From a virus (Duplodnaviria > Heunggongvirae > Uroviricota > Caudoviricetes), in the IMG/VR virus record IMGVR_UViG_2690316278_000006: a DNA stretch of 7,132 nucleotides; one strand, written 5' to 3'. Under the pieces are notes generated by a model that was not told the DNA's origin, ran no database searches, and saw only the letters and a list, made by a program, of their open reading frames with translations. Shown in pieces: positions 1-7,132 of the stretch (its first letter is position 1; the number at the start of each line of letters is the position of its first letter). The translations under genes and the position numbers were made by a program.

Positions 1-189
1 CTGGACGAAACGTTCTCGGTATCCGGGACGGAATCATCAGCGACCAGACAGCATTGAGAATGCTTCAGGAGTACATCAGGATCCAATGCCTTGGGGGGTA
101 GCGGTAATTTTACTCATTATCCTTCAAATCAGATTCTGTTGTCAGAGGAATGGGGGAAGCTGGATTCGCAAGAGCTTTTTATGGGCAGT

Positions 190-699
190 TTAGCTAAAAA
201 AAGGCAACACGAAGCTAAAACTACCAACATAAAGTGCTGACCAGCTAGCAGCTGAAATCAGACTCACTGTATACACTTTCACTGGATGAAGTTGCAACAT
301 TCCTGCCACCAAAGGAGCAATATAACGCAGCACGGCGATAAAGCGCGAAGTGAAAAGTATTGACACAGAGTTATTTTGCAACTGAAGGCGAACCCGTTCT
401 ATTGTATTGGAACGGCTTGATATTATACATGCAAGTTGAGGGATATGCCCAATTATTATACCAAGATGGTAATTAACGATAGTACCGCACCATGCGCCAC
501 TCATGACCGTGATTCCAGCTTCCCATGGTGAAAGAGTCGTCTTGCTGACTGTAATTACAGTGGCCATCATAATTGATGCTGGTGGCAATATCGCCGAAAT
601 GAGTAAAGTGGATTTTGTGAACGCTATTATAAAAAGAAGCCCCCATAGGCGATATGGATGAAGTACAAAATAGTTCATCAAAGCATTTATCCACTCCAT
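190..699 (-). CDS. small inner-membrane protein, DedA/YqaA-like (putative prophage moron)
   Basis: Minus-strand ORF 190..702 (170 aa) in the track. Its first codon is TTG (702-700); the next codon is ATG (699-697), preceded on the minus strand by AAGGA about 9 nt upstream, so ATG is the likelier start. Stop is TAA (192-190). The protein is strongly hydrophobic and the stretch 'FTKSTLLISAILPPASIMMATVI...W...G...G..VNYHLG' resembles the DedA/YqaA core motif as I remember it. The gene is visibly AT-richer than the phage genes to its right (by eye, not computed). Confidence 0.6.
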   Translation of the reverse strand: MEWINALMNYFVLHPYRLWGLLFIIAFTKSTLLISAILPPASIMMATVITVSKTTLSPWEAGITVMSGAWCGTIVNYHLGIIIGHIPQLACIISSRSNTIERVRLQLQNNSVSILFTSRFIAVLRYIAPLVAGMLQLHPVKVYTVSLISAASWSALYVGSFSFVLPFFS

Positions 700-786
700 C
701 AATGTCTTTCCTTCTGTGAATTTTTCTTTGCTATTTAACCGTGATACGACTTAATTTAGGCTTAAACACCTTACATTTACAAGGTA

Positions 787-896: not shown

Positions 897-1370
897 ATGG
901 CAAAACCGGACTGGGAGGCCATCGAATCGGCATACCGGGCCGGAGTCCTTAGCCTCCGTGATATAGGCGAGAAATACGGCGTTACAGAAGGGGCTATCAG
1001 GAAGAGGGCCAAAAAGCTTGGTTGGGCACGCAGTGGCGGTACGCAGGTTTGCAAAAATGGTACGCAAAAAAGGAAAGTGCGTACCAGCAGAAAGCCTGCC
1101 ATTACTGGCCTTACACAAAAAAGTACGCAACTAAAAACAGAATCTACACCGGATACGAAACCGATACGCGGAATGCGTACCGATCCCCCGACTAACCCAT
1201 TCCAACCCGGTAACCAGCAGGCATTAAAACACGGTGGTTATGCCCGTCGCCTTCTGCTCAAAGATGAGGTGATAGAGGACGCTAAAGCGTTGACGCTCGA
1301 GGACGAATTATTTCGCCTTCGTGCTAACAACCTTGTCGCTGCAGAGAATATTGGTCGGTGGTTGGTGTCG
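897..1370 (+). CDS. phage terminase small subunit (3' end lost in N-run)
   Basis: ATG 897 has AGGAAG about 7 nt upstream. The N-terminus carries an HTH-like segment 'LSLRDIGEKYGVTEGAIRKRAKKLGW' followed by a basic region, typical of small terminase DNA-binding domains, and the gene sits immediately 5' of the large terminase. The track's 749-aa ORF 897..3146 is this gene fused to the next one through N codons; the true stop lies inside the gap 1371-1855. Confidence 0.7.
1038..1181. repeat. cluster of GTACGCA/TGCGTAC heptamers inside the small terminase gene, including a perfect 9-bp inverted repeat; candidate pac / terminase recognition site
   Basis: Exact heptamer copies: GTACGCA at 1039-1045, 1060-1066 and 1123-1129; inverted TGCGTAC at 1078-1084 and 1174-1180. 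TGGTACGCA (1058-1066) and TGCGTACCA (1078-1086) form a perfect 9-bp inverted repeat with an 11-nt A-rich spacer. Near-copies lie at 1025-1033 (GGCACGCAG) and 1163-1170 (GATACGCG). Only one other exact copy occurs in the rest of the window (3873-3879). Confidence 0.4.
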
Positions 1371-1856
1371 NNNNNNNNNNNNNNNNNNNNNNNNNNNNNN
1401 NNNNNNNNNNNNNNNNNNNNNNNNNNNNNNNNNNNNNNNNNNNNNNNNNNNNNNNNNNNNNNNNNNNNNNNNNNNNNNNNNNNNNNNNNNNNNNNNNNNN
1501 NNNNNNNNNNNNNNNNNNNNNNNNNNNNNNNNNNNNNNNNNNNNNNNNNNNNNNNNNNNNNNNNNNNNNNNNNNNNNNNNNNNNNNNNNNNNNNNNNNNN
1601 NNNNNNNNNNNNNNNNNNNNNNNNNNNNNNNNNNNNNNNNNNNNNNNNNNNNNNNNNNNNNNNNNNNNNNNNNNNNNNNNNNNNNNNNNNNNNNNNNNNN
1701 NNNNNNNNNNNNNNNNNNNNNNNNNNNNNNNNNNNNNNNNNNNNNNNNNNNNNNNNNNNNNNNNNNNNNNNNNNNNNNNNNNNNNNNNNNNNNNNNNNNN
1801 NNNNNNNNNNNNNNNNNNNNNNNNNNNNNNNNNNNNNNNNNNNNNNNNNNNNNNNG

Positions 1857-3146
1857 GATGCCGCTGGCATTGCCATATTTCTGTCGAATAAATACACCCT
1901 GCGTTTTTGTTGTGCCCGTCAGATCCAGAATAAAATCGAAGAGTCGGTGTATACCCTGCTCAAAATTCAGATAGACAGGTTTGGTCTGCGGCACCGTTTC
2001 CGTATTCTGAACAACAAAATCATTAACCGGGTTACTGGCTCGGAATTTGTTTTTTATGGATTATGGCGCAACATCGAAGAAATTAAGTCACTGGAGGGGA
2101 TCGATGTGTTGTGGCTGGAAGAAGCCCACGCACTGACGGAATACCAGTGGAAAATTCTGGAGCCAACGATCCGTAAAGAGGGTTCGGAATGCTGGTTCAT
2201 ATTCAACCCCGGACTTGTTACTGATTTCGTCTGGCGCAACTTCGTTGTTGATCCGCCCGAAGGCACTCTCATCCGCAAAATTAACTATGACGAAAATCCG
2301 TTTCTGTCTGACACCATGCTTAAGGTTATCGACGCGGCGCGACGCCGTGATCCGGATGGTTTTAAACATGTGTATGAGGGCGTTCCGGAGTCTGATGATG
2401 ATGCGGCAATCATCAAACTGTCTTGGATAGAAGCCGCAGTGGATGCGCACAAAACGTTAAATTTCGAACCCAGTGGAAGAAAGCGTATTGGCTTTGACGT
2501 GGCTGACAGTGGTACAGATAAGTGCGCTAACGTTTACCGTCACGGATCCGTTGTTTTCTGGGCCGACGAATGGAAGGCCAAAGAAGATGAATTACTGAAG
2601 AGCTGCCAGCGTACTTATCAGGCGGCGCTGGAGCGTGAAGCAGATATTGTTTACGACTCTATCGGTGTTGGTGCGTCTGCCGGTGCTAAATTCTCTGAAA
2701 TTAACGCTGACCGGAAGAGCGAGAACGCATACGCGCGACGTGTGAATTACCAGAGGTTTAACGCCGGTGCTGGTGTGCATGAGCCAGATGACGAGTACAA
2801 CGGCATCCCCAACAAAGACTTTTTCGCAAATCTTAAGGCTCAGGCATGGTGGCTGGTGGCTGACCGTTTCAGAAATACGTTTAACGCCATTAACAACGGA
2901 GAACAGTATCCTGTGGATGAGCTGATCAGCATAGATTCTCGTTGTCCGTTGCTTGAAAAGCTGAAACTGGAACTGACAACACCTCATCGTGATTTCGACC
3001 GTAACGGACGTGTGATGGTCGAAAGTAAAAAAGACCTCGCAAAACGCGAGATACCGTCACCAAACGTTGCTGATGCATTCATTATGGCCTTCGCGCCAAT
3101 CGATACATCGCTGGATATCTGGGAACAGCTGGGGAGACAGGCCTGA
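1857..3146 (+). CDS. phage terminase large subunit, PBSX-like family (5' end including Walker A lost in N-run)
   Basis: Open frame of about 430 codons from the gap edge to TGA 3144-3146. It contains a Walker-B-like 'IDVLWLEEAH' and a downstream acidic nuclease-domain-like segment 'IGFDVADSGTDK'. The stop overlaps the next start (ATGA at 3144-3148). The N-terminal ATPase part with the expected Walker A is presumably inside the gap. Confidence 0.85.
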   Translation, partial: DAAGIAIFLSNKYTLRFCCARQIQNKIEESVYTLLKIQIDRFGLRHRFRILNNKIINRVTGSEFVFYGLWRNIEEIKSLEGIDVLWLEEAHALTEYQWKILEPTIRKEGSECWFIFNPGLVTDFVWRNFVVDPPEGTLIRKINYDENPFLSDTMLKVIDAARRRDPDGFKHVYEGVPESDDDAAIIKLSWIEAAVDAHKTLNFEPSGRKRIGFDVADSGTDKCANVYRHGSVVFWADEWKAKEDELLKSCQRTYQAALEREADIVYDSIGVGASAGAKFSEINADRKSENAYARRVNYQRFNAGAGVHEPDDEYNGIPNKDFFANLKAQAWWLVADRFRNTFNAINNGEQYPVDELISIDSRCPLLEKLKLELTTPHRDFDRNGRVMVESKKDLAKREIPSPNVADAFIMAFAPIDTSLDIWEQLGRQA

Positions 3147-4612
3147 TGGCACGAAACAAACAAGCCCTGCGGCGAACTGTGCAGGCCACAGCTGATGGTT
3201 ATGAGAATTTTATTGCCCGCGTAGGGATGCAGACACCTAACCAGCACTCAGCATCCACCTACCGGGCTAATTTCACCAGTCGTAACCGCATGCTGGTGGA
3301 ATGGTCCTATCGTTCATCCTAGATCATCGGCGAAGCAGTCGATGCTATCCCGGATGATATGACCCGCAAAGGCATTCGCATCACTTCGGAAATTGATGCA
3401 AAAGATCGTGGCATTCTCGAATCACAACTGGATGAGTTGCAAATCTGGGATGCGCTGAATGACGTGCTGAAATGGTCGCGCCTCTACGGCGGCGCGGTGG
3501 GTTTCATCATGATTGAGGGGTAGGCACCAATGACCCCGCTGCGACCCGAAACCATCGGTAAGGGCAAGTTTAAGGGGATTCTCCCGCTCGACCGCTGGAT
3601 GGTCGACCCGGCACTGACCCGCCGCATTAAAGATATGGGGCCGGACCTGGGTAAACCTGAGTTTTACGATGTGGTGACCACAGCAACGGGAATTCCTGCC
3701 TGGCGCATTCATCACAGTCGCCTGATTCGCTTTGATGGCGTCACGTTGCCATTTCAGCAGAAGATGACCGAGAACGAATGGGGAATGTCGGTTGTAGAGC
3801 GTATCTGGGATCGTCTTACCGCGTTCGACAGCGCTACTGTCGGCGCGGCGCAGCTGGTCTACAAGGCGCATTTGCGTACCTACAGCGTGGAGAAGCTACG
3901 CGAGCTTATCGCACTTGGTGGTCCTGCGTATGAAGCGTTGCTGAAGAATATCGACCTGATTCGACAGTTCCAGAGTAATGAAGGCATGACGCTCATGGAC
4001 TCGCGGGATAAGTTTGAAACCCATCAGTACAGCTTCAGTGGTCTGGATGACATCCTTTCGCAGTTTGTAGAACAGATTAGTGGCGCTGTTGGTATCCCAC
4101 TGGTGCGGTTGTTCGGACAGTCCCCGAAAGGATTTTCTACCGGTGATGCAGACCTTGCCAACTATTACGATCGCATCAGTTCGTTGCAGGAGAGGCGTTT
4201 ACGTCTTCCGGTGCGGCGGATACTGGACATCATGCATCGTTCGGAACTTGGCAAGCCGCTGCCGGACGATTTCACGTTTGAGTTTAACCCGCTCTGGCAA
4301 ATGTCTGATGTCGATCGCTCAACGGTGGCGTTAAACACCACCAACGCAATCAGTACGGCGCTGGGTGATGGTCTGATGACACTGAAAGCCGCTATGACTG
4401 ATTTGCGAGAAAATTCTGACGTAACCGGCATCGGGGCATCCATTACCGACGAGGACATCGAGAATGCCGAAGATGAAGCGCCGCCCGGCATCGGCGAACC
4501 TGATGACGAACCGCAGGAGCCGTCAGGCGGAAATCCGGTATCGAACCAGCCTACGCAGGATAGCGAGGGCGGTCGGAGACATCGTAAATGGTCGCTACGA
4601 TGGTTCAAATGA
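3146..4612 (+). pseudogene. phage portal protein reading frame (489 codons) interrupted by two in-frame TAG codons
   Basis: One frame runs from ATG 3146 (GGGGAG about 9 nt upstream, start overlapping the terminase stop) to TGA 4610-4612, with no frameshift. It is broken only by TAG at 3320-3322 and TAG at 3521-3523, giving segments of 58, 66 and 360 aa that read as one continuous protein with an acidic C-terminal tail. Size and position directly after the large terminase fit a portal protein. Confidence 0.6.
3530..4612 (+). CDS. portal protein, longest uninterrupted segment (360 aa), possibly expressed as an N-truncated product
   Basis: ORF-track entry 3530..4612. ATG 3530 lies two codons after the second in-frame TAG and has GAGGGG about 9 nt upstream. 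It is in the same frame as 3146..3523, so it is most likely the C-terminal three quarters of the portal rather than an independent gene. Confidence 0.6.
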   Translation: MTPLRPETIGKGKFKGILPLDRWMVDPALTRRIKDMGPDLGKPEFYDVVTTATGIPAWRIHHSRLIRFDGVTLPFQQKMTENEWGMSVVERIWDRLTAFDSATVGAAQLVYKAHLRTYSVEKLRELIALGGPAYEALLKNIDLIRQFQSNEGMTLMDSRDKFETHQYSFSGLDDILSQFVEQISGAVGIPLVRLFGQSPKGFSTGDADLANYYDRISSLQERRLRLPVRRILDIMHRSELGKPLPDDFTFEFNPLWQMSDVDRSTVALNTTNAISTALGDGLMTLKAAMTDLRENSDVTGIGASITDEDIENAEDEAPPGIGEPDDEPQEPSGGNPVSNQPTQDSEGGRRHRKWSLRWFK

Positions 4613-5246
4613 CAGTATCACGGAAATTATTGCGGCGCTGGAGCGTTACAGTGAAATCATCACCCCCTGGGCGACAAAGGTCGCGGAAAACTTTACTGCG
4701 GACCTAACCCGGCAGAACGAGAAAGTTTGGCGGCAACACAGCAAGAACATCAGTCGCGAGCTCCGCAATCTTGTGGAAAGCGCTCCTGTGGGCCAGGTGA
4801 TGCAATCCATCATCGCCGAACAGGTCAAGTACATCAAATCTCTGCCTCTCGAGGCCGCAGACAGGGTGTACGACATCCAGAACAAAGCGATAGAGGCTGT
4901 TGTCACCGGTGGTCGGGCGGAGCAGTTTGCTAAAGAGATTGCATCTACCGGCGATGTTGCTAAGTCTAGGGCCGATCTGATTGCCCGAACGGAACTGGGA
5001 AGAGCAACGGGCGCGCTGGATATGGCCCGAGCGATAGCTATTGGCTCGGATGGTTATATTTGGCGTACAGCCGATGATGGCGATGTCCGAGATTCCCACG
5101 ATCACATGAAAGGTAAATTCGTCCGCTGGGATTCACCTCCAACTTTGGACGGCATGACCGGCCACGCGGGCGAGCTGCCAAACTGCCGCTGCTATAAAGA
5201 GATCGTGTTTGTTCGCGTTCCATTCGCAATGAAAAGGGCAGCATAA
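4464..5246 (+). CDS. phage head morphogenesis / minor capsid protein (Mu F / SPP1 gp7-like)
   Basis: ORF of 260 aa with GAGGA about 8 nt upstream of ATG 4464 and stop TAA 5244-5246. It contains 'WRTADDGDVRDSHDHMKGKFVRWD' (a D..VR..H type motif) and a C-terminal 'NCRCY', which I recognise as characteristic of this family. The 5' end overlaps the portal 3' end by 149 nt; alternative in-frame ATGs at 4473 and 4503 shorten the overlap only slightly. Confidence 0.8.
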   Translation: MPKMKRRPASANLMTNRRSRQAEIRYRTSLRRIARAVGDIVNGRYDGSNDSITEIIAALERYSEIITPWATKVAENFTADLTRQNEKVWRQHSKNISRELRNLVESAPVGQVMQSIIAEQVKYIKSLPLEAADRVYDIQNKAIEAVVTGGRAEQFAKEIASTGDVAKSRADLIARTELGRATGALDMARAIAIGSDGYIWRTADDGDVRDSHDHMKGKFVRWDSPPTLDGMTGHAGELPNCRCYKEIVFVRVPFAMKRAA

Positions 5247-5249
5247 CCC

Positions 5250-5798
5250 ATGAAATACTTTTTTGAGACCAGGCTCGGGGAAACCCGATACCGCCTGGCT
5301 GACGGCTCGTTGCTGTGCAAAGACGTGCCGATAGGACGAACAGGTAAGCAGCTCTATGGTGCTGATGACCTGCCAAAACTGAAACCCGATAAGTTCGGTG
5401 AAATAGTCGTCACGCGTTCTCCTGAGCAGGTATTCCATCCGGCCACGCTTGCCTCATTCGAAGGGATGAGCATCACGATCCTGCATCCTGAAGATGAAAA
5501 CGGGAATGTGCGGCTGGTAAATCCCGAGAACTGGAAAGAGCTTGCTGTCGGGCACCTCCAGAATGTCCGGCGCGGGACGGGTGAGCAGTCTGATTTGATG
5601 CTGGCTGACCTTATCGTCAAAGACGAAAGCGCCATTCAGCTTATCGAAGATGGCCTGCGCGAAGTGTCGTGCGGCTATGACGCGGAGTACGAGCAGACCG
5701 AGCCAGGTAAAGCCGAGCAGGTCGATATTACCGGAAACCATGTGGCTCTTGTCCCTAAAGGCAGAGCCGGAAATCGTTGTGCAATTGGAGACAGAGAC
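5250..5798 (+). CDS. phage head scaffold/protease-like protein, N-terminal part (DUF2213-like, from memory); 3' end in N-run
   Basis: ATG 5250 lies 4 nt after the upstream TAA. 183 codons are visible before the N-run. The N-terminal '[19 protein letters not shown]' resembles a motif I recall from DUF2213-type phage head proteins; this is uncertain without a profile search. Its position after the Mu-F-like gene is typical for a scaffold/protease. Confidence 0.6.
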
Positions 5799-6094
5799 NN
5801 NNNNNNNNNNNNNNNNNNNNNNNNNNNNNNNNNNNNNNNNNNNNNNNNNNNNNNNNNNNNNNNNNNNNNNNNNNNNNNNNNNNNNNNNNNNNNNNNNNNN
5901 NNNNNNNNNNNNNNNNNNNNNNNNNNNNNNNNNNNNNNNNNNNNNNNNNNNNNNNNNNNNNNNNNNNNNNNNNNNNNNNNNNNNNNNNNNNNNNNNNNNN
6001 NNNNNNNNNNNNNNNNNNNNNNNNNNNNNNNNNNNNNNNNNNNNNNNNNNNNNNNNNNNNNNNNNNNNNNNNNNNNNNNNNNNNNNNNNNNNNN

Positions 6095-6544
6095 GATGAT
6101 GACCTCAAAACATTACTGAAAGCCCTGCTGGCTAAGCTGGAAAGAAATGCCACGGGCGATAACGATAATAAGCCTGACGATAATCCGACCGGTGACGGCG
6201 AGGACGATGAAGAGGAAACCACGATTACTGGTGACTCAGCCTGGCGTGCCGAAGTTATCGTTCCGGGTATCGATCTGAGCCGTAAGATGAAACCGACCGC
6301 GTTCAAACGCGAGGTTCTGGCTTCTGCTGACAAAACGCTGGTTCGCCAGATAGTCGGTGATGCGGATATCCGCAAATTACCGAAACAATCGGTCGACATG
6401 GCGTTTAATGCCGTGTCTGAGGTTGCCAAAGGGCGAAACACCCGCGCCACCACCGGCGATGCACAGCGCCTAAACATGGGCATGACCAGTATCGCTTCCC
6501 TGAACAAACAAAACGCTGAATTCTGGGCAAACCGTAAAGGGTAA
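6095..6544 (+). CDS. acidic scaffold-like protein, C-terminal part (5' end in N-run); probably the same gene as 5250..5798
   Basis: Open frame from the gap edge to TAA 6542-6544, 149 codons. It has an acidic low-complexity tract 'DNDNKPDDNPTGDGEDDEEETT' followed by a helical-looking C-terminus, which is scaffold-like. The reading frames on both sides of the N-run are exactly in phase with the gap boundaries, so any true gap length divisible by 3 gives one continuous gene. Confidence 0.5.
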   Translation, partial: DDDLKTLLKALLAKLERNATGDNDNKPDDNPTGDGEDDEEETTITGDSAWRAEVIVPGIDLSRKMKPTAFKREVLASADKTLVRQIVGDADIRKLPKQSVDMAFNAVSEVAKGRNTRATTGDAQRLNMGMTSIASLNKQNAEFWANRKG

Positions 6545-6547
6545 AAA

Positions 6548-6724
6548 ATGAATAATGTATTTCTGTACCGGATGCCTGTTGGCATTGCCGGGGCTGTCTC
6601 TCGCCCGCAGGACTTAACCGTCGAACCGGTGGTCCTTAAATCCGATAACGCCTTCGCTGCCTATGGCCTGGCTGGTAAATACGATGATGACGGTTTTTTC
6701 GTGCCGCTGGCAGATGGTGATACC
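6548..6724 (+). CDS. phage head-module structural protein (hypothetical), N-terminal part up to the 26-nt N-run
   Basis: ATG 6548 has AAAGGG about 6 nt upstream and lies 4 nt after the previous stop. 59 codons are visible ('MNNVFLYRMPVGIAGAVSRPQ...FVPLADGDT') before the N-run. Confidence 0.5.
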
Positions 6725-6750
6725 NNNNNNNNNNNNNNNNNNNNNNNNNN

Positions 6751-7086
6751 GATACCGCAGACAAGGTGAAGGGGATCTACGTGCGCCCTTATCCGACCAC
6801 GTCGCAGCCGGACATGGTTCGCCAGGTGGGAACAGGCAAGAACTTCCCGGGCGACGCCATGAAGCGTGGCTACGTGACCGTTAATCTCGGTTCTGATTTT
6901 GATGCCAGCACTATCAAAAAAGGCGATCCGGTATACGTTGTCGTCTCCACTGATGAATCCATCAAAGTGCCGCTGGGTGGATTCATGTCCACGTCAGTCA
7001 GTGGCAAAAACGTGGTGCTGACCAACGCTGAATTCACAGGTGCCGGTGATGCTGACGGCAATGCAGAAATTTCCTGGAAGATTTAA
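6751..7086 (+). CDS. phage head-module structural protein (hypothetical), C-terminal part after the 26-nt N-run
   Basis: Frame open from the first base after the gap ('DTADKVKGIYVRPYP...') to TAA 7084-7086. The track starts it at GTG 6766, but the frame is open back to 6751. The hexamer GATACC occurs immediately before (6719-6724) and immediately after (6751-6756) the gap, and joining the flanks through one copy makes a single continuous ORF of about 168 aa. The sequence looks beta-rich; the function (decoration or other capsid-associated protein) is a guess. Confidence 0.5.
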   Translation, partial: DTADKVKGIYVRPYPTTSQPDMVRQVGTGKNFPGDAMKRGYVTVNLGSDFDASTIKKGDPVYVVVSTDESIKVPLGGFMSTSVSGKNVVLTNAEFTGAGDADGNAEISWKI

Positions 7087-7132
7087 GGAACAGACGAATG
7101 AGGTGATGCTGCCAACTTACTGATTTAGTGTA

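What the first reader, a model, noticed from the sequence alone, without database searches (positions are those of the whole stretch)
3146..4612. Portal gene is intact except for two in-frame amber (TAG) codons
Codon-by-codon translation from ATG 3146 gives one frame open to TGA 4610-4612, with TAG at 3320-3322 ('...EWSYRSS*IIGEAV...') and TAG at 3521-3523 ('...FIMIEG*APMTPL...'). There is no frameshift and the three segments read as one portal-like protein. Every other late gene visible in the window (terminase, head morphogenesis, scaffold-like, structural) is uninterrupted and none has an in-frame TAG. Possible explanations are (a) two independent nonsense mutations in a decaying prophage, (b) expression that depends on amber suppression or readthrough (a suppressor tRNA in the phage or host, or a laboratory amber mutant), or (c) base-call errors in a draft scaffold. 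Two stops of the same kind in the single gene whose product nucleates procapsid assembly is a striking pattern.
Basis: seen in the sequence. Interest (0 to 1): 0.65.

Follow-up and report, generated by a model that had tools for sequence, protein, structure and literature searches.

The report
Dead portal gene in Shigella prophage
The two amber stops are real, fixed point mutations that killed the portal gene of a prophage remnant in Shigella sonnei that has also lost its capsid and tail genes, so this is ordinary prophage decay and not a recoding or suppression system.

Summary
The frame from ATG 3146 to TGA 4612 is a collinear 488-codon portal gene (Pfam PF06381) broken only by TAG 3320-3322 and TAG 3521-3523. 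Each stop is one G:C>A:T transition from a codon that is invariant in intact relatives: Trp59 TGG>TAG and Gln126 CAG>TAG. Outside its N runs, the window is 100% identical to complete Shigella sonnei chromosomes, including 53G and 75/02. The three ORF pieces each occur on at least 1000 public contigs, so base-call error and a laboratory mutant are excluded. No tRNA with a CUA anticodon lies in the window or in the 21-kb loci around the gene. TAG is the normal stop of two neighbouring genes. None of about 100 related proviruses or 5,426 E. coli genomes carries either stop. Suppression would also have nothing to rescue. The IS1 end at 7102-7132 replaces 19,075 bp of the intact prophage (major capsid, neck, tail, baseplate, fibres, ipaHb), and further IS elements cut the holin gene and the tRNA region. 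The first amber lies at a Dcm site (CCTGG), a classic hotspot that generates amber codons. Two nonsense hits in one gene is mildly improbable under neutrality (p about 0.01-0.03, post hoc). Verdict: an ordinary pseudogene of low interest.

The parts
1..101 (+). 3' end of the Rz-type lysis gene, ending in a natural TAG stop at 99-101
   Evidence: Collinear with L001 2987-3087, annotated 'lysis protein'. Pfam PF03245 on the S. sonnei product. Stop codon TAG.
190..702 (-). DedA-family membrane protein gene on the opposite strand, a cargo ('moron') gene between the lysis and packaging modules. Intact, with one synonymous change at 418.
   Evidence: L001 3176-3688, WP_011069285.1 DedA family protein. 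PF09335. Substitution list.
897..1370 (+). Visible 5' part of the 254-aa TerS-like gene. The rest is hidden by the scaffold gap 1371-1855.
   Evidence: L001 3883-4647. Intact 254-aa product in complete S. sonnei genomes.
1856..3146 (+). Visible 3' part of the large terminase gene (PBSX family, 467 aa). Intact. Its TGA overlaps the portal ATG.
   Evidence: L001 4598-6001. PF04466 Terminase_3, 467 aa in S. sonnei chromosomes.
3146..4612 (+). Portal protein pseudogene (488 codons, PF06381 / TIGR01555 / phrog_146)
3320..3322 (+). Amber 1: Trp59 TGG>TAG (G>A at 3321). It lies inside the ancestral Dcm site CCTGG, at the G that pairs with 5-methylcytosine.
3521..3523 (+). Amber 2: Gln126 CAG>TAG (C>T at 3521). 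Not at a Dcm site.
4067..4069 (+). Third S. sonnei-specific portal change: Ala308 GCA>GTA (Val)
4503..5246 (+). Head morphogenesis (Mu F-like) gene, 247 aa, intact. Overlaps the portal 3' end.
   Evidence: L001 7358-8101. PF04233.
5250..6544 (+). DUF2213 (Pa193_gp24-like) head gene, 406 aa, intact in complete genomes. Its middle is hidden by the gap 5799-6094.
6548..7086 (+). Cement protein Gp24-like gene, 168 aa, intact in complete genomes. The 26-N gap 6725-6750 lies inside it.
7098..7101 (+). Stump (ATGA) of the DUF2184 major capsid gene, cut after its 4th base
   Evidence: L001 9847-9850 is the last collinear position.
7102..7132 (+). Left terminal repeat of the IS1 element that replaces 19,075 bp of the intact prophage
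   Evidence: In complete genomes, InsA/InsB (PF03811, PF12759, PF03400) follow directly. The element is 768 bp, and the sequence resumes at L014 20062.

Best explanation
This is the portal gene of a lambdoid-type prophage integrated next to pgl/ybhC in Shigella sonnei. The prophage has myovirus-type tail genes in its intact relatives. The gene is a dead pseudogene. Two spontaneous G:C>A:T transitions turned the conserved codons Trp59 (TGG) and Gln126 (CAG) into TAG. As far as these data show, both were fixed before the common ancestor of present-day S. sonnei. The first lies at a Dcm-methylated CCTGG, where deamination of 5-methylcytosine on the opposite strand gives exactly TGG>TAG. The second is an ordinary C>T transition. 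Translation stops after 58 residues and no functional portal is made. Nothing selects against this, because the element cannot form particles: IS1 has deleted the major capsid gene and all neck, tail, baseplate and fibre genes, and other IS elements interrupt the holin gene and the phage tRNA cluster. Shown: the mutations, their polarity, their fixation, the deletion and the absence of a nearby suppressor tRNA. Inferred: the Dcm deamination mechanism, the order of events and the absence of expression.
For: Identity of the gene: PF06381 E=5.8e-104, phrog_146 portal E=1.4e-174, TIGR01555, homology to the solved Pam3 portal 8hds E=2.2e-37, position directly after TerL. Derived point mutations: the window differs from intact prophages L001 and L003 at only 8 positions in about 6.3 kb. 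Positions 3321 and 3521 are G and C in L001, L003 and the four outgroups L015-L018, which include two isolated phages. W59 and Q126 are invariant in alignment A1. Real and fixed: 100% identity to complete S. sonnei chromosomes L004 and L007-L012, which include 53G (lineage II) and 75/02 (lineage IIIc). The 58-, 54- and 360-aa pieces are each on >=1000 contigs and carry S. sonnei names. They are listed in 2576-2758 index blocks. Not conserved elsewhere: 0 exact matches to either TAG-bearing 61-mer in 5,426 E. coli genomes. Of 105 IMG/VR proviruses, 93 are TGG/CAG, 4 are TAG/TAG and identical to S. sonnei, and none is a single mutant. The S. flexneri and E. coli GTDB representatives carry TGG/CAG. 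Loss of constraint: portal synonymous:nonsynonymous counts among functional relatives are 18:6, 13:7, 17:7 and 149:43, against 0:1 plus 2 nonsense on the S. sonnei branch. Element is defunct: IS1 replaces L014 987-20061, 19,075 bp holding capsid to tail fibres and ipaHb. IS elements sit in the holin gene and the tRNA region. No suppressor: no tRNA in the window and no CUA anticodon in the twelve 13-21-kb loci scanned. TAG terminates Rz and the TerS-like gene. Dcm context of amber 1, and 8 of 26 Dcm 5mC positions give stops, all TAG. Background: every Shigella reference genome has >=199 pseudogenes, caused by IS, nonsense or frameshift (PMC7373316).
Against: Two nonsense hits among so few lineage-specific substitutions is somewhat rarer than simple neutrality predicts. 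P(same gene) is 0.027 or 0.008, and P(both in the portal) is 0.0095 or 0.003. The portal figure is still 0.003-0.006 with a 10-30-fold Dcm hotspot weight. The whole S. sonnei genome could not be scanned for a tRNA-CUA. A GAGGGG Shine-Dalgarno-like motif lies 9 nt before ATG 3530, so expression of the 360-aa fragment is not excluded. The order of the two mutations relative to the IS1 deletion is unknown.
Confidence: 0.93

Rival explanations
1. The portal is expressed through amber suppression or programmed readthrough. A host or phage suppressor tRNA reads both UAGs and a full-length portal is made.
For: Both stops are the same codon and the frame is otherwise intact. Intact relatives carry a phage tRNA cluster upstream of the lysis genes. 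From my own knowledge, natural coliforms with amber suppressors have been reported.
Against: The tRNAs in relatives have anticodons CAU, UCU, UGU and UCC or UAC, none CUA. In S. sonnei the cluster is cut by IS, leaving at most one tRNA. No relative conserves either TAG. TAG is the genuine stop of Rz and the TerS-like gene in the same operon. The capsid, tail and fibre genes are deleted, so a portal would have nothing to assemble with.
Confidence: 0.02
2. The stops are base-call or assembly errors in a draft scaffold.
For: The window is a gapped scaffold. Its three N runs have lengths that disagree with the finished sequence, and one has a 6-bp overlap across the gap.
Against: Both TAGs are present, with 100% identity over all non-N bases, in seven of the ten chromosome-scale S. 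sonnei assemblies fetched (L004, L007-L012). Among these are the finished chromosomes 53G and 75/02. The ORF pieces are on >=1000 contigs.
Confidence: 0.005
3. This is a laboratory conditional-lethal amber mutant of a phage.
For: Amber mutations in portal genes are classic laboratory tools, and G:C>A:T is the signature of hydroxylamine, EMS and NTG (my own knowledge). Most lineage-specific changes here are G:C>A:T.
Against: The allele sits in the chromosome of clinical S. sonnei isolates from different lineages and countries, inside an IS-degraded remnant. G:C>A:T is also the dominant spontaneous class of mutation.
Confidence: 0.005
4. Inactivation was selected or the remnant was co-opted. Either knocking out the portal was advantageous, or the 360-aa C-terminal fragment restarted at ATG 3530 has a retained function.
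For: The same-gene double hit has a nominal p of 0.003-0.03. The three in-window substitutions outside the portal are all synonymous. A GAGGGG motif lies 9 nt upstream of ATG 3530. S. dysenteriae also has a 360-aa ORF that starts at the same Met129.
Against: A second knockout adds nothing once the first exists. Portal loss does not prevent lysis. The p-values are post hoc in a genome with hundreds of pseudogenes. Three versus three substitutions has no statistical power. S. sonnei is too young a clone for conservation of the fragment to mean anything. The S. dysenteriae fragment has four radical changes at residues otherwise invariant or nearly so, which indicates decay.
Confidence: 0.04

Closest known systems
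Cryptic or defective lambdoid prophages of E. coli and Shigella (for example DLP12, Rac and Qin of K-12, and the IS-riddled prophage remnants described for Shigella genomes)
   Same: A chromosomal prophage that has lost its structural genes through IS-mediated deletion, has IS insertions in its lysis genes and point-mutation pseudogenes, and is fixed in the host lineage (background PMC7373316).
   Different: Nothing essential differs. This particular remnant still has intact terminase, head-morphogenesis, DUF2213 and cement genes, and differs from an intact relative at only about 0.1-0.2% of bases, so the decay is recent.
Intact phages and prophages of the same family: Escherichia phage vB_EcoM-606R2, Salmonella phage SEN34 (Brunovirus), Citrobacter phage Omnitron, and the ipaHb-carrying prophage of 'E. 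coli' FDAARGOS_944
   Same: The portal is 91-99% identical in protein sequence and collinear over 488 aa. The gene order portal, head morphogenesis, DUF2213, cement, major capsid is the same.
   Different: Those carry TGG and CAG at codons 59 and 126 and a complete capsid and tail module. Some have a different terminase module.
Amber hotspots at Dcm sites (CCWGG) caused by 5-methylcytosine deamination, as in the classic lacI nonsense spectrum (Coulondre and Miller, from my own knowledge)
   Same: Amber 1 is CCTGG>CCTAG, the change expected when the methylated C on the complementary strand deaminates. All 8 stop-creating Dcm positions in this region would give TAG.
   Different: Amber 2 and A308V are not at Dcm sites. 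Dcm activity in the ancestral host is assumed, not shown.
Conditional-lethal amber mutants in phage portal genes (lambda B, P22 gene 1, T4 gene 20; from my own knowledge)
   Same: UAG codons early in the portal gene would abolish procapsid nucleation.
   Different: Those are laboratory mutants propagated on suppressor hosts. This allele is natural, fixed in a bacterial species, has no suppressor nearby, and sits in an element with no capsid gene.

Membership tests
Phage portal protein, PF06381 / TIGR01555 (HI1409) family | Significant match to the family profile above the curated cut-off | tested here: met
   PF06381 scores 348.1 bits against a cut-off of 33.8 for the window translation with X at the stops. 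TIGR01555 scores 255.1 against 196.25, and phrog_146 gives E=1.4e-174, for the intact ortholog.
Phage portal protein, PF06381 / TIGR01555 (HI1409) family | Homology to an experimentally solved portal dodecamer | tested here: met
   Pam3 portal 8hds E=2.2e-37 over residues 15-413, plus other portal chains.
Phage portal protein, PF06381 / TIGR01555 (HI1409) family | Gene lies directly downstream of the large terminase in the head module | tested here: met
   The TerL stop overlaps the portal ATG at 3144-3148.
Phage portal protein, PF06381 / TIGR01555 (HI1409) family | Uninterrupted reading frame able to encode the full protein | tested here: not met
   TAG at codons 59 and 126. The sequence is a pseudogene of this family, not a functional member.
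Pseudogene in a defective (cryptic) prophage | Disabling mutation is derived relative to intact orthologs | tested here: met
   Outgroups L003 and L015-L018 all have G at 3321 and C at 3521. 93 of 105 proviruses are TGG/CAG.
Pseudogene in a defective (cryptic) prophage | Other independent disabling lesions in the same element | tested here: met
   IS1 replaces 19,075 bp of structural genes. IS elements lie in the holin gene and the tRNA cluster.
Pseudogene in a defective (cryptic) prophage | Relaxed purifying selection on the gene | tested here: met
   0 synonymous, 1 missense and 2 nonsense on the S. sonnei branch, against 13-18 synonymous to 6-7 nonsynonymous among functional relatives. The counts are small.
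Pseudogene in a defective (cryptic) prophage | No protein product or function | not testable with these tools
   Needs transcript and proteome data or genetics.
Suppressor- or readthrough-dependent (recoded) gene | The in-frame stop is conserved among relatives | tested here: not met
   only S. sonnei sequences carry the TAGs.
Suppressor- or readthrough-dependent (recoded) gene | A cognate suppressor tRNA (anticodon CUA) in the element or host | tested here: inconclusive
   None in the window or in the twelve 13-21-kb loci scanned. The whole S. sonnei genome could not be scanned.
Suppressor- or readthrough-dependent (recoded) gene | TAG is avoided as a terminator in the same genetic unit | tested here: not met
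   Rz and the TerS-like gene end in TAG.

The most novel reading that the evidence does not exclude
The double amber is not pure drift. One version is that the Gln126 amber is shared with the Shigella dysenteriae type 1 copy, whose ORF also starts at Met129. That would mean an already portal-defective prophage moved between Shigella lineages, by chromosomal recombination or by packaging with a portal supplied in trans from a co-resident relative. The other version is that the 360-aa fragment restarted at ATG 3530 behind a GAGGGG motif is expressed and retained.
Probability: 0.05. Interest if true: 0.3.

Novelty: already known. Interest (0 to 1): 0.07.

Why it matters
It matters little beyond housekeeping. 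It is a clean example of recent prophage decay in a host-restricted pathogen: point nonsense mutations, one at a methylation hotspot, combined with IS-mediated deletion. It also shows how pseudogene fragments pollute databases. The 54-aa piece between the ambers matches a PHROG family of exactly its length and span, and the fragments are annotated as separate 'bacteriophage proteins'. For annotation, window 3146-4612 should be a single pseudogene and not three CDS.

Tried and rejected
1. Sequencing error: rejected, because finished S. sonnei chromosomes are identical.
2. Laboratory amber mutant: rejected, because the allele is in thousands of natural isolates.
3. Suppressor tRNA: ARAGORN on the window and 12 loci found none with CUA. 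The whole genome was not available.
4. Conservation of either TAG outside S. sonnei: not found in E. coli complete genomes, GTDB representatives or IMG/VR.
5. Ordering the two mutations through single-mutant ORFs. Exact look-ups found the 125-aa product (only Q126 stop) in 3 Logan contigs, a 417-aa product (only W59 stop, A308) in 1, and an intact 488-aa V308 allele in 1.
6. S. dysenteriae DNA. A window-derived pattern with N found no such variant in IMG/VR. A short-flank look-up of the 54-aa ORF returned only S. sonnei alleles. This stays unresolved.
7. Apparent truncation of the head-morphogenesis gene in some genomes (152 against 247 aa) is only a difference in start-codon choice by the gene caller, since the DNA is identical.
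8. The search for homologous proteins, structure prediction and fold search were not used. Close intact orthologs and a sequence match to solved portals already answered the question.
Full report
OBSERVATION. The window was read in full. Translating 3146-4612 gives a single frame that ends at TGA 4610-4612 and is interrupted only by TAG 3320-3322 and TAG 3521-3523. The mechanical ORF list splits it into 58-, 54- and 360-aa ORFs. With X at the two stops, the product matches Pfam PF06381 (Phage_portal_3) in one stretch, residues 55-402, E=5.8e-104. The intact ortholog matches phrog_146 'portal protein' (E=1.4e-174), NCBIfam TIGR01555, and the solved Pam3 portal 8hds (E=2.2e-37).

WHAT THE STOPS WERE. 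The gene occurs in 382 of 5,426 complete E. coli genomes and in isolated phages. Three genomes are 99.8% identical over the gene and encode an intact 488-aa protein, WP_000113499.1. A base-by-base comparison of the whole window with these relatives finds only 8 differences in about 6.3 kb. Two of them are the stops: 3321 G>A (Trp59 TGG>TAG) and 3521 C>T (Gln126 CAG>TAG). A third portal change is 4068 C>T (Ala308Val). Outgroups polarise all three as derived in the window's lineage. The outgroups include phages vB_EcoM-606R2 and SEN34. In a seven-sequence alignment the three segments are collinear with one portal, with no gaps, and W59 and Q126 are invariant.

WHERE THE WINDOW COMES FROM, AND WHETHER THE STOPS ARE REAL. 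The exact 360-aa ORF after the second stop is indexed in 2,576 blocks of public assemblies. Ten chromosome-scale loci all show the same 58/54/360-aa split. Outside its N runs, the window is 100% identical to seven of them. HE616528.1 is S. sonnei 53G (lineage II) and CP019689 is S. sonnei 75/02 (lineage IIIc) (PMC5447701). Each of the three pieces is on at least 1000 contigs, and the sources name them as S. sonnei proteins. The stops are therefore genuine and, as far as these data show, fixed in the species. Base-call error and a laboratory mutant are both excluded. The window itself is a gapped draft scaffold. Its N runs of 485, 296 and 26 bases stand for 354 bases, 222 bases and a 6-bp overlap in finished genomes. 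Nothing unusual is hidden in the gaps, because the TerS-like, TerL, DUF2213 and cement genes are full length in the finished genomes.

ARE THE STOPS FOUND ELSEWHERE? They were not found outside S. sonnei. Neither TAG-bearing 61-mer has an exact match in the E. coli genome collection: 142 and 273 matches, all at 98.4% identity or less. The S. flexneri and E. coli species representatives carry TGG and CAG. Among 105 IMG/VR proviruses, 93 have TGG/CAG, 4 have TAG/TAG and are identical to the S. sonnei sequence, and none has a single stop.

SUPPRESSION. No tRNA is predicted in the window. Intact relatives carry a four-tRNA cluster upstream of the lysis genes, with anticodons CAU, UCU, UGU and UCC or UAC. 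In S. sonnei, IS elements have removed all or all but one of these tRNAs. No CUA anticodon is present in any of the 12 loci scanned. TAG is the normal terminator of two genes in the same late operon, Rz (window 99-101) and the TerS-like gene. The whole S. sonnei genome could not be scanned, so a host suppressor is not formally excluded.

CONTEXT. The last 31 bases of the window (7102-7132) are an IS1 terminus. In complete S. sonnei genomes a 768-bp IS1 follows, with InsA and InsB called by Pfam. The sequence then resumes at a partial DNA-invertase gene next to the chromosomal pgl gene. Against the intact relative, this IS1 replaces 19,075 bp. The lost stretch holds the major capsid gene from its 5th base, the neck, sheath, tube, tape-measure, baseplate and tail-fibre genes, and an ipaHb effector gene. 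Upstream, IS elements interrupt the holin gene and the tRNA region. A portal protein, suppressed or not, would have no capsid to nucleate. That makes the suppression reading biologically empty.

SELECTION AND CHANCE. Among functional relatives the portal evolves under purifying selection, with synonymous:nonsynonymous codon differences of 18:6, 13:7, 17:7 and 149:43. On the S. sonnei branch the counts are 0 synonymous, 1 missense and 2 nonsense. I simulated neutral mutation with the observed substitution spectrum on the ancestral sequence. With 14 substitutions over the 7.75-kb collinear block, P(>=2 nonsense)=0.14, P(two in one gene)=0.027 and P(two TAG)=0.045. With only the six in-window substitutions, the values are 0.045, 0.008 and 0.014. 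The TAG identity is expected, since 110 of 196 stop-creating G:C>A:T transitions give TAG. Mutation is also not uniform. The ancestral context of amber 1 is CCTGG, a Dcm site, and the mutated G pairs with the methylated cytosine. Only 26 such positions exist in the 6.9-kb span. Eight of them would create stops, and all eight would be TAG. A 10-30-fold hotspot weight raises P(>=2 nonsense of 5 transitions) to 0.04-0.07, while P(both in the portal) stays at 0.003-0.006. [quoted passage not shown] Every Shigella reference genome has at least 199 pseudogenes (PMC7373316). I do not regard it as evidence for anything beyond drift.

MECHANISM. Shown: two derived transitions, fixed in S. sonnei, in an element that has lost its structural module. 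Inferred: spontaneous deamination produced the stops, at a 5-methylcytosine for amber 1 and at an ordinary cytosine for amber 2. Also inferred: translation ends at codon 59, the gene makes no functional product, and the lesions drifted to fixation in a small-population, host-restricted clone because the prophage was already, or soon became, non-viable. The order of the ambers relative to the IS1 deletion is unknown.

LOOSE ENDS. (i) S. dysenteriae Sd197 and 1617 carry a 360-aa ORF (P0003) that starts at the same Met129. It has the ancestral Ala308 and four changes of its own (W186R, P318L, P459L, R477W). A start at Met129 rather than Met122 implies a lesion between codons 122 and 128. That could be the same Gln126 amber, a Glu124 stop or an IS junction. 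I could not obtain the DNA. No long contig that carries the 54-aa inter-amber ORF has the S. dysenteriae allele. (ii) Exact look-ups show very rare contigs with products expected from single-amber or unmutated V308 alleles. Their nature is unknown. (iii) The ATG at 3530 has a GAGGGG motif 9 nt upstream, so restart of a 360-aa fragment is conceivable but untested.

COMPARISON AND VERDICT. This is a pseudogene of the PF06381 portal family in a cryptic prophage. It is the same kind of object as the defective prophages long known in E. coli K-12 and Shigella. Amber 1 has the same origin as the classic Dcm-site amber hotspots. It is not a recoded or suppressor-dependent gene, because the defining features tested were not met. 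Novelty: already known in kind, and the sequence has been in public databases for years as separately annotated fragments. Interest is low.

Noticed in passing
window 7098-7132; L007 13467-14234; L014 987-20061: The window ends in an IS1 terminus placed 4 bases into the major capsid gene. In complete S. sonnei genomes this single IS1 replaces 19,075 bp of the intact prophage (capsid, neck, tail, baseplate, fibres, ipaHb). The sequence resumes at a partial invertase gene next to pgl. A second IS1 nearby has deleted the chromosomal genes ybhH-ybhI.
   Followed up: yes
window 1371-1855, 5799-6094, 6725-6750: The N runs are scaffold gaps with wrong sizes. They are 485 N where finished genomes have 354 bases, 296 N for 222 bases, and 26 N where the flanks actually overlap by 6 bases (GATACC is duplicated on both sides). 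The window is from a draft assembly.
   Followed up: yes
L144 (CP022672.1) about 1-1290, junction at the first amber: In one S. sonnei strain an IS630-family element (343-aa DDE_3 transposase) is inserted exactly at the TA of the first amber codon. The TGG>TAG change created CTAG, which is the preferred IS630 target (my own knowledge). One decay step seems to have made the site for the next.
   Followed up: partly
P0003 (ABB62211.1, S. dysenteriae Sd197/1617), equivalent to window 3530-4612: S. dysenteriae type 1 also has a 360-aa portal fragment that starts at Met129. It has four radical substitutions of its own and the ancestral Ala308. Whether its upstream lesion is the same Gln126 amber could not be determined.
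   Followed up: partly
exact look-ups P0061, P0076, P0077: Very rare Logan contigs encode products expected from a Q126-stop-only allele (125 aa, 3 contigs), a W59-stop-only allele (417 aa, 1 contig) and an unmutated allele with the S. sonnei-specific Val308 (488 aa, 1 contig). They could be evolutionary intermediates or assembly chimeras.
   Followed up: partly
portal residues 72-125 = window 3359-3520: PHROGs family phrog_28295 ('unknown function', 54 positions) matches exactly the 54-aa piece between the two ambers, so it seems to be built from this pseudogene fragment. UniRef labels the same fragment 'Alpha/beta hydrolase'. PGAP names some fragments of this portal 'anti-CBASS protein Acb1 family protein'. 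All three look like annotation artefacts.
   Followed up: partly
L014 17761-19587; L001, L002: The intact relative of this prophage carries the T3SS effector gene ipaHb near its right end. The 'E. coli' strains FDAARGOS_943 and FDAARGOS_944 that host it are therefore probably Shigella or EIEC. In S. sonnei this ipaH copy was lost in the IS1 deletion.
   Followed up: partly
window 190-702 (- strand): An intact DedA-family membrane protein gene lies on the opposite strand between the lysis and terminase modules. It is a cargo gene conserved in the closest relatives and carries only a synonymous change in S. sonnei.
   Followed up: no
L007 5860-6503 (just upstream of window position 1): Eight S. 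sonnei-specific substitutions cluster in about 650 bp of the lysozyme and Rz genes, and seven are nonsynonymous. Only eight more occur in the following 7 kb. This is either relaxed selection on the lysis genes or a small recombination patch.
   Followed up: no
L007 against L014: Between S. sonnei and FDAARGOS_944 the prophage DNA is 99.8-99.9% identical, but the flanking chromosomal genes are only 98.5% (pgl-ybhD) and 97.9% (ybhJ-ybhC) identical. This suggests the prophage is younger than the divergence of the two host chromosomes.
   Followed up: no
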